A stretch of DNA of 64,000 nucleotides from Squalus acanthias (Eukaryota). The DNA lies in assembly GCA_030390025.1 (NCBI GenBank), contig CM059432.1, positions 44,766,001-44,830,000 of the forward strand, in the 5' to 3' direction. Each line of letters begins with the position of its first letter. Position 1 is the stretch's first letter. Below are positions 16,676-63,516 of this stretch, piece by piece. A program made the translations under genes and the position numbers. Under the pieces are notes generated by a model. That model saw nothing but the letters and a program-made list of their open reading frames with translations. It was not told the DNA's origin and did not search any database.

Positions 16676-16814
16676 TACAATAGCAAAATACTGCGGATGC
16701 TGGAAATCCGAAATAACAACAGAAAACGCTGGAAAAACTCAGCAGGCCAGGCAACATCCGTGGAGAGAGAAACAGAGTTAACGTTTCAGGTCGAAGACCT
16801 TTCGTCAGAACTGG
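16676..16814 (-). mobile_element. Short Penelope-like terminal-repeat fragment (family 1) carrying a hammerhead
   Basis: Near-identical in reverse to 17015-17155 and 46470-46610; TSD ATAAAAGGAA (16666-16675 and 16815-16824). Confidence 0.85.
16776..16812 (-). ncRNA. Minimal type I hammerhead ribozyme motif
   Basis: AGUU-CUGACGA-A-AGGUC(UUC)GACCU-GAAA-CGUU-AACU. Confidence 0.75.
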
Positions 16815-16928
16815 ATAAAAGGAACATTCTCTGATTGACAGGATGTGACAAGCTGGCCAGAATTTTCCCCTAAAAAAAGGGTGGGTTTGGAGCGTATTGT
16901 TAAATTTGGAGCCAAATTGTTAAAAATG

Positions 16929-17157
16929 TCTCTTCATCTCCTCCTTTGTTCCTTTATCCCCTCCCCCTTTTCCCAGCTTTACCCTGGCCTTAAATCTATT
17001 TGATTTCCAGCTCTTCCCAGTTCTGATGAAAGGTCATCGACCTGAAACGTCAACTCTCTTTCTCTCTCCACGGATGCTGCCTGGCCTGCTGAGTTTTTCC
17101 AGCGTTTTCTGTTGTTATTTCGGATTTCCAGCATCCGCAGTATTTTGCTATCGTATC
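16929..17157 (+). mobile_element. Penelope-like 3' terminal fragment (family 1)
   Basis: Nearly identical to 46384-46612; TSD TTGTTAAAAATG (16917-16928 and 17158-17169). Confidence 0.85.
17019..17055 (+). ncRNA. Minimal type I hammerhead ribozyme motif with a GUC cleavage triplet
   Basis: AGUU-CUGAUGA-A-AGGUC(AUC)GACCU-GAAA-C-GUC-AACU. Confidence 0.8.
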
Positions 17158-17286
17158 TTGTTAAAAATGGGGTTTGGATGTCTGTGTGCAGAGATTATTA
17201 AAAGCTAGTGCAAAGGTACAAAAGGTACAGTGAAACCTGTATAAATGGACACTCCCAAAAAACAGACTCCTGCAAAAACACACATT

Positions 17287-17948
17287 GGTCGGAATTTTCT
17301 GAGGTAAGAGCGGGTGGGTTGGAGGCTTGGGGGGAAGTGAAAGTTAAAAAAATGTGAACCCTGACCCCAACCTGCCTCTAACCCACCCACTTTCACCTTT
17401 CACTCAGGCGGGATTGGGGGGGGGGGGGCTGGCTGCCAACCCGCTGCCAAGAGGCGGGTTGGCAATTTAAATATTATAATGAGGCCTGAAGCCTTCACTT
17501 TACTGCAGGCGGCCAGGGATCCCGGGGCTCGGGATTCCCGGTGGCTGCAATGAGGTGGGCTCAGCCTCGGGGAGCAATACTTGTGGGCCGGGAGGAGCAG
17601 GAGTGCTTCCTCCCGGCCTCCACAAGATCCCCCACCATCAGCCTAGCCCACCCCGGGGTTGGGATCCAACCACCTCCAGGGATCAGATCCCCCCCCACCC
17701 CCGGGCCTGGAACACCGCCCCCCCAACGCCCACCCCGCCCCCCCCGGGCTTGGACCGCCCCCTTCAACTTACCTGTTGCTCCGGCCTCCTTCTCCGAGTT
17801 CCCCGCACGACTGGAAGCCAGCCTGTCAATCACGCTGACTTCTGGGTGGGGAAACCGCCCCTGATGTCGCACGCACGCTGTGGAGTTAAAACTCTCCTGG
17901 GTCCCCCACGCACCATGCGGTGGGGGGGGGACCCAGGAAAATCCAGCC
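17287..17948. mobile_element. Harbinger-type MITE (GC-rich)
   Basis: Imperfect TIRs GGTCGGAATTTTCTG and CAGGAAAATCCAGCC; TSD ATT on both sides. Confidence 0.75.
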
Positions 17949-60179: not shown

Positions 60180-61282
60180 ATAGGGAAATAAGGAGACATT
60201 TCTTTACTCAGAGAGTCGTTAGAATTTGGAACTCGCTACCACAGGAAATGTTTGAGGCAAATAGCTTAGATGCATTCAAAAGGAAACTAGACAAGTACAT
60301 GAGAGGAAAAAAAAAATAGAAAGATATGCTGAAAGGCCAAGATGAGGTAGATAGAATGGTAGGAGACTCGTAGGGCTGGATTTTGATACTGGGGGCAGGT
60401 TGGGGTCGTGAATCCCACTTTTTGGGTTGTAGACCCGCCTCCATCGACTTGTGGCCAACCCACTGTATTTTCCCTTGATTTACCTTGTTGAGCCCGCCCA
60501 GTGAGCTCATCAGGCCAATTAAAGGCCACCCGGCAACAGGTGACGTCACAGATTGACATTTCATCTGTCAAGAGCTTTTGACAGATGAAATATCAGCGTT
60601 TGACAGCTCTGTGAAGCTGTCAAACACTGACAATTTGTCTTCTAACTTGAGTCCTTCCTCTCAGGCTGAGTTAGAAATCATTCCAGCACAGAAATCAGAG
60701 GCTGAAACTTTTGACAGCACCACGGCTTTCCTGCTTTCTGTGCCGGTGAGATTTCTGACTCCCGAGAACTGAAGGGCTGACACCTGCAGGAGGAAGTTAA
60801 GGTAAGTAAAACTTTTTCCCACACTTTGCACTTACCTTACACACTTACCTCTGCACACATGCACCCATTACTCACCTGCCCACCGGACATATCGACCCCT
60901 CCAACCCCTGCAGACCCACGGTCCGCCCCGATAACTTGGCGTGGTTGGCACCTGTCGGGAAGCCCACATTTCACCTTTCAAAATAGGGATTAGGCAAAAA
61001 ACTGCCTGTTAACTACCTGTTAACAGGCAGTTAATTGTCACTAATATCTTCCCGCCTCGGGGAGTCGGGTCCCAGCACAGGTCGGGTACCCGCCGCCAAC
61101 GAAACTGGCATGGAGGTGGGTTGGGGGCGGGATGGGGTTGGGACCCCCGAATCTGCAACTTTAACCCCCCACACGCCTCCAAACCCGACTCCACGGGTCA
61201 ATGAAAATCCAGCCCATGGAGTTTAAACACCAGCTCTGACTAGTTGGGCTGAATGGCCACTTTCTGTGCTGTATATTCTATG
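60180..61282 (+). mobile_element. CR1 3' end fragment split by a MITE
   Basis: REIRRHFFTQRVVRIWNSLPQ...FKRKLDKYM; 3' UTR resumes at 61216 (GGGCTGAATGGCC...ATTCTATG). Confidence 0.8.
60373..61215. mobile_element. Harbinger-type MITE (TGACA-hairpin family)
   Basis: Perfect 12-bp TIR GGGCTGGATTTT...AAAATCCAGCCC; colinear with 36309-37136. Confidence 0.9.
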
Positions 61283-62830
61283 TAACTTGCATTTATATAG
61301 TGCCTTTAACATAGTAAAACTTCTCAAGGCGCTTCACAGAAGCGTAATCAGACAAACAAATAGGCACCAAGCCAAAGAAGGAAGGATTAAGACACATGAC
61401 CAAAAGCTTTGTCATAGACGTAGGTTTCAAGGAACGTCTGAAAGGAGGAGATAGAGGTGGAGAGGCAAAGATGTTTAGGGAGGAAATTCCAGAGCTTAGG
61501 TCCTAGACAGCTGAAGGCATAGCCACTAATAGTTGGTGAAGGAAGTCAGGGATGCACAAGAGGCCAGAATTAAAGAACAGCAGAGTTCTCGAGGAGCTGT
61601 AGGGCTAAAAAAGACTACAGAGATAGGGAGGGGTGAGGCCATGTAGGGATTGAACACGAGGATGAGAATTTTTAAATTAAGGCATTGCTAGATCGGAAGC
61701 CAATGTAGGTCAGCGAGCACAGGGGTGATGGGTGAACAGGACTTGGTGCGAGTTAGGACACCGTCAGCAGAGTTTTGGATGAGCTCAAGTTTATGGAGGG
61801 TGAAAGATGGGAGCAGGAAAGCATTGGAATAGAGGAGTCTGGAGGTAACAAAAGCATAAATGAGGGTTTCAACAGCAGATTGGCAAAGGCAGGGGTGGAG
61901 ACAGGCAATATTAAGTAAATAGAAGTAGGCGGTCTTGGTGATGGAGAGGATACGGGGTCGGAAACTCAGCTCTGGGTCAAATAGGATGCCAAGATTGCAA
62001 ATAGTCTGGTTCAGCCTGAGACAGGGCCAGGGAGGAGGATGGGGTCGGTAGCTAGGGAATGGAGTTTGTGCTGTGGGCCGAAGACTATGGCTTCGGATTT
62101 CCCAATGTTGAATTGGAGGAGATTTCTGCTCATTCAGAACTGGATGTCGGAAAAACAGCCTGACAACACAGAGGTAGTGGAGAGGCCGAGAGAGATGGTA
62201 GTGAGGTAGAGCTGGGTGTCATCAGAATACCTGTGGAATCTAATGTGCTTTCAGATAATATCACTGAGAGACAGCATGTAGATGAGAAATAGGAGTGGCT
62301 AAGGAGAGAACCTTGGGGAACTCCAGAGGTAACGATGCAGGAGCAGGAAGAGAAGCTATTGCAGGAGATTCTCTGGGTATGACTGGATTGATAAGAATGG
62401 AACCAGGCAAGGGCAGTCCCACTCAGCTGGTTAGGATTAGGGTTGGAGAAGGAGAGTGTGGTCAACCGTGTCAAAGTCTGCACAGGTCGAGAAGGATAAG
62501 GAGAGGTAGTGTACCATAGTCACAGTCACATAGGATGTCATTTGTGACTTGATTAGTGCTGTTTCAGTGTTGTGGTAGGGACGGAAACCTGATTGGAGAG
62601 GGTCAGACATGGAGTGGGAAATATGGGCATGGATTTTGGAGGTGACACCACATTCAAGGTCTTTGGAGAGAAAAGGGAGGTGGGAGATGGGGTCAAGGGT
62701 AGGTTTTTTGAGGAGGGTGATGATGACAGCAAATTTGAAAGGCAGCAGGACAGTTAACAATCTTAGCTAGCATGGGGGCCAGTAAGGGAAGTTTGGTGGT
62801 GAACAGTTTAATGGGAATGGTGTTGAGAGA
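61283..62830 (-). mobile_element. Degraded L2 LINE
   Basis: LQSGFRPYHNTETAL, GVPQGS; 3' tail CTATATAAATGCAAGTT. Confidence 0.88.
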
Positions 62831-62875
62831 ACAGGAGATATATATTCAAATATAATGTAGTAAGCTATTATATTC

Positions 62876-63516
62876 GAAATAACAACAGAAAACGCTGGAA
62901 AAACTCAGCAGGTCAGGCAGCATCCGTGGAGAGAGAAACAGAGTTAACGTTTCAGGTCGAAGACCCTTCGTCAGAACTGGAAAAAAGCAGGAAATGAAAT
63001 AGATTTAAAGCAAGTATAATGCTGGGAAAAGGGGGAGGGGAATGAAAGAACAAAAGGGAAGGTCAGTGATAGGATAGAAGGCAGGAGAGATTAAGAGACA
63101 TTGAGAGACATTAAGAGATATTCAAGGCGAGAGGAGGTGTTGATGTGACAGGTTGAGGCTATATGAAGTGTGAAATGCGCTGGCGGAATGAAGGACAGCT
63201 GCCAGCTTCAGGGAGGAAAGAAAAAAAGGGGCCAAACAAAAGGGTGGATGAAAAAATAAAATATATATGTATATGTGATAGGGGCCGTGGTTATGATCTG
63301 AAATTGTTGAACTCTATGTTGAGTCCAGAGGGCTGTAGTGTGCCTAAACGAAAGATGAGGTGCTGTTCCTCGAGCTTACGCTGAGCTTCCGTGGAACAAT
63401 GCAAGAGGCCGAGGACGGTGAGGTCAGAGTGGGAGTGGAGCGGAGAATTAAAGTGACAGGCCACCGGGAGCTCGGGGTCCCCCTTACGGACTGAATGGAG
63501 GTGTTCCGCAAATTCC
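62876..63516 (-). mobile_element. 5'-truncated Penelope-like element (family 1)
   Basis: FAEHLHSVRKGDPELPVACHFN...GLNIEFNNFRS, nearly identical to 45970-46196; TSD GCTATTATATTC (62864-62875 and 63517-63528). Confidence 0.93.
62942..62978 (-). ncRNA. Minimal hammerhead ribozyme motif (family 1)
   Basis: AGUU-CUGACGA-A-GGGUC(UUC)GACCU-GAAA-CGUU-AACU. Confidence 0.75.

What the first reader, a model, noticed from the sequence alone, without database searches (positions are those of the whole stretch)
16776..62978. Family-1 minimal hammerhead ribozymes in the 3' repeat of a Penelope-like retroelement (4 copies)
Seen: copies at 16776-16812(-), 17019-17055(+), 46474-46510(+) and 62942-62978(-) all have stem I (AGUU/AACU), CUGANGA, a stem II hairpin, GAAA and a palindromic ACGU in place of stem III, ending in GUU or GUC. 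Variation falls at tolerant positions: N7 is U or C, the stem II loop varies, and one A-U pair becomes G-U. Two copies lie directly downstream of a GIY-YIG ORF. Established: Penelope-like elements carry minimal hammerheads whose palindromic stem III is thought to allow dimeric self-cleavage. Inference: this is a self-cleaving RNA system of a recently active element family, possibly undocumented in this lineage.
Basis: partly seen in the sequence, partly recalled or inferred. Interest (0 to 1): 0.75.

Follow-up and report, generated by a model that had tools for sequence, protein, structure and literature searches.

The report
Minimal hammerheads in shark Penelope ends
The four motifs are real, well-formed miniature hammerhead ribozyme sequences in the tail ends of truncated Penelope-like jumping genes in a likely shark or ray genome, an arrangement described in 2014; they are predicted to cut RNA only in pairs, which is untested here.

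Summary
Observation confirmed. All four motifs lie at the stated coordinates and fit a full minimal-hammerhead descriptor that 0 of 500 shuffled windows match. Each lies in its own insertion with a 10-14 bp target-site duplication. Two follow an open GIY-YIG frame whose closest relatives are shark and ray RT-endonuclease proteins. The 3' ends fall in two classes about 32 nt apart, the Penelope 'tail'. A second family (31130+, 45435-) shares no flanking DNA but keeps the core, with 8 of 11 pairs changed on both sides, including ACGU to AGCU. This is the best evidence that the fold was selected.

It is not a working system at this locus. The copies are 5'-truncated and none is in tandem; the close pair at 16776/17019 is two separate insertions on opposite strands. 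Cleavage is untested, and core-versus-flank conservation within the four copies has no power.

Minimal hammerheads in Penelope repeats are published (PMC4209133). I found no cartilaginous-fish example there, but a 2026 preprint scanned one such genome. This scan has noted the same thing before in this and other genomes. New member of a known kind; interest 0.2.

The parts
16776..16812 (-). Family A minimal hammerhead (ACGU, GUU triplet)
16675..16814 (-). 140-bp insertion from 6 nt before C3 to the tail end, inside a fragment of another repeat; 10-bp duplication at 16666 and 16815
17019..17055 (+). Family A minimal hammerhead (ACGU, GUC triplet; predicted cut 17051/17052)
16929..17157 (+). About 230-bp 5'-truncated terminal-repeat insertion with tail; 12-bp duplication at 16917 and 17158
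45714..46196 (+). Open frame for the C-terminal CX4CxxC linker and GIY-YIG endonuclease of family A (5'-truncated)
46474..46510 (+). Family A minimal hammerhead, C3 282 nt after the stop codon; C-A mismatch in stem II
45716..46612 (+). About 900-bp truncated insertion with tail; 14-bp duplication at 45702 and 46608
46581..46612 (+). Optional tail of about 32 nt (present in 3 of 4 family A copies)
62942..62978 (-). Family A minimal hammerhead with G-U at 10.1-11.1
62872..63512 (-). 640-bp truncated insertion without tail, with an open endonuclease fragment; 12-bp duplication at 62864 and 63517; 95% like the 46-kb copy in the frame, 86% in the 3' region
30212..30811 (+). Family B linker and GIY-YIG-type frame (37% identical to family A over 131 aa; no Pfam hit on its own)
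31130..31167 (+). Family B minimal hammerhead (AGCU), C3 323 nt after the stop; insertion about 30220-31259 with a 12-bp duplication
45388..45593 (.). Family B head-to-head inverted insertion with an 8-bp duplication; intact hammerhead at 45435-45471(-) on the tail-less arm, broken one at 45464-45501(+) on the tailed arm
53566..53740 (.). Old inverted relic related to family A (73-80% alike); decayed hammerhead at 53643-53676(-); no duplication found

Best explanation
The four motifs are minimal type I hammerhead sequences in the 3' terminal repeat of four separate, 5'-truncated insertions of one Penelope-like retroelement family, and they likely were selected in the parent element to cut its RNA weakly as a pair, the ACGU of two motifs forming stem III. 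Shown: the motif, the insertion boundaries, target-site duplications, tail, linkage to a GIY-YIG frame, and structure-preserving change between two families. Inferred: full-length tandem parents elsewhere bring two motifs into one transcript; a monomer cannot close stem III over zero loop bases, so stems I and III would form between two motifs; cleavage probably needs the element's protein. Inferred: all intact copies here were reverse-transcribed from uncut RNA, starting 100-134 nt downstream of C3, because they span the cleavage site. The copies in this window are most likely passengers that now decay.
For: Descriptor matches 6 in the window and 0 in 500 shuffles. Duplications of 8-14 bp at 6 of 7 insertions tested; random position pairs reach 10 bp in 0.25% and 8 bp in 4.1% of 2000 trials. 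The family A frame scores above the Pfam GIY-YIG cut-off (23.2 vs 22.6 bits). Its best relatives are shark and ray proteins at 60-69% identity, and longer relatives carry RT upstream of the endonuclease. Families A and B share no blastn match longer than 14 nt in their 3' regions, yet 65 of 66 cells pair and 8 of 11 pairs change on both sides. In an unrelated repeat family from metagenome contigs, the unconstrained middle of my pattern formed stem II: 65 of 77 hits had 5 of 5 pairs, mean 4.82 against 2.01 shuffled. The architecture matches the published min-HHR consensus. Tail, inverted repeat and duplication match published Penelope insertions.
Against: No cleavage or RNA-end data. The covariation is essentially one comparison, family A against family B, and the structure was drawn from these sequences. 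Within the four copies 0 of 11 core columns vary, but this is expected by chance with probability 0.38. Predicted minimum-energy folds of monomer and dimer are not the active fold in any of the 6 motifs; in family A the core pairs with the strand around the cleavage site. Family A has A-U or G-U at 10.1-11.1, not the usual G-C, and 3 of 4 copies have GUU. No RT domain or second terminal repeat is in the window. No loose-end pile at the cleavage site is among the 22 of 1260 rows shown. Published min-HHRs cleave weakly; in Anolis cleavage needed the protein and was not needed for insertion, and no RNA reads ended at the cut; 8 of 9 Xenopus retrozyme dimers did not cleave.
Confidence: 0.8

Rival explanations
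1. [quoted passage not shown]
For: 5' ends gather at the 5' edge of stem I: 2 of 6 intact window copies start 6 nt before C3; loose ends before 46472, 46473 and 46475 number 311, 117 and 179 in run X5; 14 of 63 copies of the unrelated family start within 24 nt of the motif, against 2 in each of the next four 25-nt bins. In Anolis catalytic mutants did not change insertion in vitro; Naiad elements thrive without hammerheads.
Against: The catalytic core letters, not only the stems, are identical in families A and B, and the palindrome is kept by a compensatory swap. The pile-up has plainer causes: a T-rich tract before stem I gives microhomology with AT-rich targets, and the 46472 loose ends partly share one sequence (agreement 0.53), which points to a sister subfamily.
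Confidence: 0.12
2. The 130-140 nt unit from hammerhead to tail is a non-autonomous mini-element (a monomeric retrozyme-like family) that spreads on its own and is sometimes tandem.
For: 16675-16814 is exactly this unit with its own 10-bp duplication. Summed contig depth in X5 is higher over 46468-46595 than just upstream, and two single contigs join the tail back to the motif (46600 to 46472; 46613 to 46477). Animal retrozymes are proposed to derive from Penelope repeats.
Against: The copies form a nested series of 5' truncations (6, 94, 538 and 762 nt before C3), as expected for ordinary truncation. The tandem joints are 1 contig each among 46,492 laid. Summed depth is no copy number. No tandem in the window.
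Confidence: 0.06
3. The motif is a chance likeness amplified by a repeat.
For: No Rfam match; four copies are one ancestral sequence; no power within the family.
Against: A second family with unrelated flanks has the same motif at the same place, with compensatory changes; 0 of 500 shuffles; the class is published for Penelope repeats.
Confidence: 0.02

Closest known systems
Minimal hammerheads (min-HHR) in terminal repeats of metazoan Penelope-like elements (Cervera and De la Pena 2014, PMC4209133; I read parts 1-2 of 4 of the main text and parts 1-2 of 3 of supplementary file 2)
   Same: Core CUGANGA, one unpaired base before stem II, short stem I, GAAA, two-base palindrome in place of stem III, GUC or GUU, place in the repeat after the endonuclease, mostly single truncated copies, some close pairs on opposite strands.
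   Different: Family A closes stem II with A-U (3 copies) or G-U (1), not the consensus G-C; the paper's own alignment has such members (Latimeria 2, D. willistoni, S. mansoni 1). No cartilaginous fish appears in Table S1 or Fig. S3.
Neptune/Nematis-type endonuclease-positive Penelope-like elements (clade features from PMC8557442, passages read)
   Same: C-terminal GIY-YIG domain with the Cys/His ligands, CX4CxxC linker, optional 30-40 bp tail, inverted truncated copies; relatives have RT with the DKG motif upstream.
   Different: No RT in the window's copies; Neptune against Nematis was not tested for lack of reference sequences.
Anolis Poseidon element PAc (Frangieh et al. 2024, PMC11167929; parts 1-2 of 4 read)
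   Same: Hammerhead roughly 100-140 nt before two alternative 3' ends that define the tail; a predicted stem-loop in that stretch.
   Different: Different clade (the window's frames carry the linker that Poseidon lacks). PAc's start codon lies at stem II; in family A the ATG within the core is present in only 2 of 4 copies.
Non-LTR retrozymes (PMC7229834, passages; Li et al. 2026 preprint 10.64898/2026.07.22.740005, parts 1-3 of 5)
   Same: Type I hammerhead, likely Penelope origin, reported in one chondrichthyan genome.
   Different: Those are head-to-tail tandem arrays; the window's copies are dispersed, single and duplication-flanked.

Membership tests
min-HHR of metazoan Penelope-like elements | Core CUGANGA ... 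GAAA ... UH in type I order | tested here: met
   4 of 4 family A and 2 family B motifs
min-HHR of metazoan Penelope-like elements | One unpaired base between positions 9 and 10.1 | tested here: met
   A in 6 of 6
min-HHR of metazoan Penelope-like elements | Paired stem II closed at 10.1-11.1 (G-C in the consensus; A-U and G-U among published members) | tested here: met
   A-U x3, G-U x1, G-C x2; published exceptions. Family A departs from the majority G-C.
min-HHR of metazoan Penelope-like elements | No stem III loop; palindromic 15.2-16.2 | tested here: met
   ACGU in family A, AGCU in family B
min-HHR of metazoan Penelope-like elements | Located in the terminal repeat after the endonuclease frame | tested here: met
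   2 of 4 family A copies and 1 family B copy retain the frame; C3 282 and 323 nt after the stop
min-HHR of metazoan Penelope-like elements | Self-cleavage as a dimer, not as a monomer | not testable with these tools
   Folding shows the dimer can be drawn but is not the predicted minimum; no RNA-end data (one search holds contigs only)
Endonuclease-positive Penelope-like elements (Neptune/Nematis type) | C-terminal GIY-YIG endonuclease with Cys/His motif | tested here: met
   Pfam PF01541 23.2 bits; invariant C, Y, G, E, R, H, E, N columns
Endonuclease-positive Penelope-like elements (Neptune/Nematis type) | CX2-5CxxC linker before the endonuclease | tested here: met
   CX4CxxC in both families
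Endonuclease-positive Penelope-like elements (Neptune/Nematis type) | Telomerase-like RT upstream in the same frame | tested here: inconclusive
   Cut off in the window; an RVT_1 match is present in 3 of 4 relatives scanned, DKG motif in the three long ones
Endonuclease-positive Penelope-like elements (Neptune/Nematis type) | Optional 30-40 bp tail, inverted copies, short target duplications | tested here: met
   Tail about 32 nt (A) and 46 nt (B); inverted insertion 45388-45593; duplications 8-14 bp
Endonuclease-positive Penelope-like elements (Neptune/Nematis type) | Placement in Neptune rather than Nematis by RT tree | not tested
Non-LTR retrozymes | Head-to-tail tandem units each with a hammerhead | tested here: not met
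   None in the window; 2 single-contig tandem joints in run X5
Rfam hammerhead families | Score at or above a curated model's threshold | tested here: not met
   No hammerhead model among hits to E 5 (whole window) or E 10 (16980-17100)

The most novel reading that the evidence does not exclude
Penelope copies start in excess at the 5' edge of the hammerhead and not at its cleavage site, in two unrelated families. [quoted passage not shown] Internal priming at the tail plus run-off at this point would mass-produce a 130-140 nt hammerhead mini-element, the seed of tandem retrozymes, with no need for cleavage.
Probability: 0.15. Interest if true: 0.55.

Novelty: new member of a known kind. Interest (0 to 1): 0.2.

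Why it matters
As a class, little: hammerheads in Penelope repeats are published for many animals. It extends the list to a very high-copy family in a likely cartilaginous fish. What the ribozyme does in the Penelope cycle is still open (PMC8557442, PMC11167929), and a family with tens of thousands of variant contigs, several subfamilies and sharp insertion ends is good material for asking whether copies ever start at the cleavage site and whether selection acts on the core between subfamilies.

Tried and rejected
Genome-wide copy analysis: no genome is held for this window, so core-versus-flank conservation and covariation over the family's own copies remain open. Rfam found no hammerhead; its best hits (MIR7807, MIR396 at 45.4 kb, below threshold) are the family B inverted repeat. 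No copies of family A were found in viral or prokaryote collections. The metagenome scan returned 80 loci of a different repeat family, useful only as an analogue; my 77 'unique' hits were de-duplicated by exact match and may include re-assembled loci; the window's endonuclease hit only 3 of those loci weakly. Rejected: that 16776(-) and 17019(+) are one inverted insertion or a cis dimer; each has its own duplication and they lie on opposite strands. A stem pairing the segment after the motif with the tail is predicted in both families, but no fold beat shuffles (z -0.2 to -1.3). Copies that start at the cleavage site: the + arm of the relic at 53671 and 2 of 20 motif-less copies in the other family start within about 2 nt of it; too few to test. 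The 2017 paper on dimer cleavage of these variants could not be read; I know it from a review passage and its title. Supplementary file 1 of PMC4209133 was not searched and the preprint's supplements were not seen; either may list cartilaginous-fish motifs.
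Full report
Observation. Each reads stem I (4 bp), CUGAYGA, an extra A, a 5-bp stem II with a 3-nt loop, GAAA, ACGU, then U or C and the 3' strand of stem I. A loose pattern finds 6 matches in the window against 1.04 expected. A full descriptor finds the same 6 and none in 500 dinucleotide shuffles. Rfam has no matching hammerhead model.

Anatomy. 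The four copies are four separate insertions. They share a 3' end region and extend 6, 94, 762 and 538 nt upstream of C3. Each is flanked by a perfect duplication of 10, 12, 14 and 12 bp; random position pairs reach 10 bp in 0.25% of 2000 trials. The pair at 16.7-17.2 kb is therefore not one inverted unit, and the two motifs lie on opposite strands, so they cannot pair in one transcript. Three copies end 133-134 nt after C3 and one ends after 102 nt. This optional stretch of about 32 nt matches the Penelope 'tail' described in PMC3846280 and PMC8557442 (passages).

The parent element. The frame at 45714-46196 matches Pfam GIY-YIG just above its cut-off. Of 66 longer relatives, the best named ones are shark and ray proteins at 60-69% identity. 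An RVT_1 match lies upstream of the endonuclease in 3 of 4 relatives scanned. A CX4CxxC linker precedes the endonuclease, which by PMC8557442 points to Neptune or Nematis and away from Poseidon. The lineage is inferred from these relatives only. No RT and no upstream repeat are in the window.

A second family. The other two descriptor matches, 31130-31167(+) and 45435-45471(-), belong to a family whose endonuclease is 37% identical to the first and whose 3' DNA shares nothing longer than 14 nt with it. It has the motif at the same place, its own duplications (12 and 8 bp) and its own tail. Across the six motifs 65 of 66 cells pair and 8 of 11 pairs change on both sides, including the swap ACGU to AGCU. 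This is the strongest evidence that the fold was under selection, but it is one comparison between two families. A model built on the six finds only two more traces: the broken arm at 45464-45501(+) and a decayed relic at 53643-53676(-).

An outside analogue. A pattern that fixed stem I and the core returned 80 metagenome loci of an unrelated repeat family. The free middle paired in 5 of 5 positions in 65 of 77 hits (mean 4.82, shuffled 2.01), with C-G and U-A each 34 times at one pair. Its 3' ends also fall in two classes: 40 of 71 at 40-54 nt and 23 of 71 at 70-84 nt past the motif. The model from the window's motifs scores these at 24-34 bits in 20 of the 80 loci searched. Copies found without using the motif often have core lesions (20 of 77 lack the exact motif), so single genomic copies decay.

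Abundance and age. Run X5 laid 46,492 contigs on 45700-46640: 7,260 at 99% or more, 14,738 at 95-99%, 17,473 at 90-95% and 7,021 below 90%; C>T, G>A and T>C changes dominate. The stretch is held at half its words or more by 16 of 21 listed runs. So the family is abundant and long-lived, with young members. Perfect duplications and open frames fit recent activity; nothing here shows present activity.

Mechanism. Shown: motif, ends, tail, linkage. Inferred from the class: a monomer cannot form stem III, so two motifs would swap strands, pairing stem I and the palindrome between them. Folding does not favour this state; in family A the predicted minimum pairs the core with the strand around the cleavage site, which fits low unaided activity. 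Published data agree: weak cleavage of dimers and none of monomers, cleavage only with the protein in Anolis, no effect of core mutants on insertion, and no RNA reads ending at the cut. All intact copies here span the cleavage site, so they came from uncut RNA. I put 0.8 on a real, weak, dimer- or protein-dependent ribozyme of the parent element whose copies in this window are passengers.

One lead. 5' ends gather just before stem I: 2 of 6 intact window copies, loose ends of 311, 117 and 179 contigs at 46472-46475 in X5 (22 of 1260 rows shown), and 14 of 63 copies in the unrelated family within 24 nt. No pile at the cleavage site is among the rows shown. This could mark the RNA's 5' end or a stop for reverse transcriptase. 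It could also come from T-rich microhomology or from sister subfamilies with another upstream sequence. Two single contigs show the unit head to tail.

Against the finding's strongest claims. Within the four copies 0 of 11 core columns vary against 9 of 107 overall, which chance gives with probability 0.38. The genome-wide test could not be run. No cleavage or RNA-end evidence exists.

Literature. PMC4209133 defines this class and reports it in fish, coelacanth, frog and reptiles; its Table S1 and Fig. S3 hold no cartilaginous fish. Five searches listed no paper on shark Penelope hammerheads; the library lacks most subscription papers, and one search showed 25 of 2,826. The 2026 preprint scanned one chondrichthyan genome with canonical and minimal descriptors and found hammerhead tandem repeats; its supplements were not seen. 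The 2017 survey was not held. Earlier notes of this scan describe the same motifs in this genome and in others; they are unchecked AI notes and are not counted as support.

Verdict. Observation confirmed, interpretation largely right, kind known. New member of a known kind; interest 0.2.

Noticed in passing
window 30212-31259 and 45388-45593: Second Penelope-like family with AGCU minimal hammerheads, its own tail and duplications; one copy is a head-to-head inverted insertion whose + arm is broken inside the core.
   Followed up: yes
window 53566-53740: Old inverted relic related to family A; its + arm starts about 2 nt before the predicted cleavage site.
   Followed up: partly
window 46455-46475, 17000-17020, 62977-63000(-): A pyrimidine tract ending in CAG overlaps the 5' strand of stem I in family A, like a splice acceptor. 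In D. virilis Penelope an intron ends at helix I. Family B lacks the AG. Not tested.
   Followed up: no
window 46527-46590 and 31181-31238: In both families a segment after the motif is predicted to pair (8-10 bp) with sequence at or in the tail; whole-fold z-scores are not significant.
   Followed up: partly
runs X8 and X13 laid on window 45700-46640: These runs, labelled as other organisms, hold only 11 and 23 matching contigs, yet one matches 797 letters with 6 differences. Trace DNA with collapsed repeats is the simple reading; transfer between species is not excluded.
   Followed up: no
run X5, joints 46600 to 46472 and 46613 to 46477: Single contigs show the hammerhead-to-tail unit head to tail, which would place two motifs 130-160 nt apart on one strand.
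   Followed up: no
protein P0005, C-terminus: A read-through prediction ends in a stretch that resembles the translation of a hammerhead motif at about the expected distance after the endonuclease; indirect only.
   Followed up: no
loci L001-L080: An unrelated abundant repeat family with the same stem I and palindrome, a 6-bp stem II, a tail of about 33 nt and frequent inverted pairs.
   Followed up: partly
window 20773-24729(-), 33499-36418(+), 18734-19579(+), 26033-29089(-): Other mobile-element frames: by eye, CR1-type LINEs including a 991-aa open frame, a Harbinger-like nuclease and Gypsy-like remains. These labels are from my own knowledge, not from a search.
   Followed up: no
window 63935-64000: Weak tRNA-like match below threshold, perhaps the head of a SINE.
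   Followed up: no
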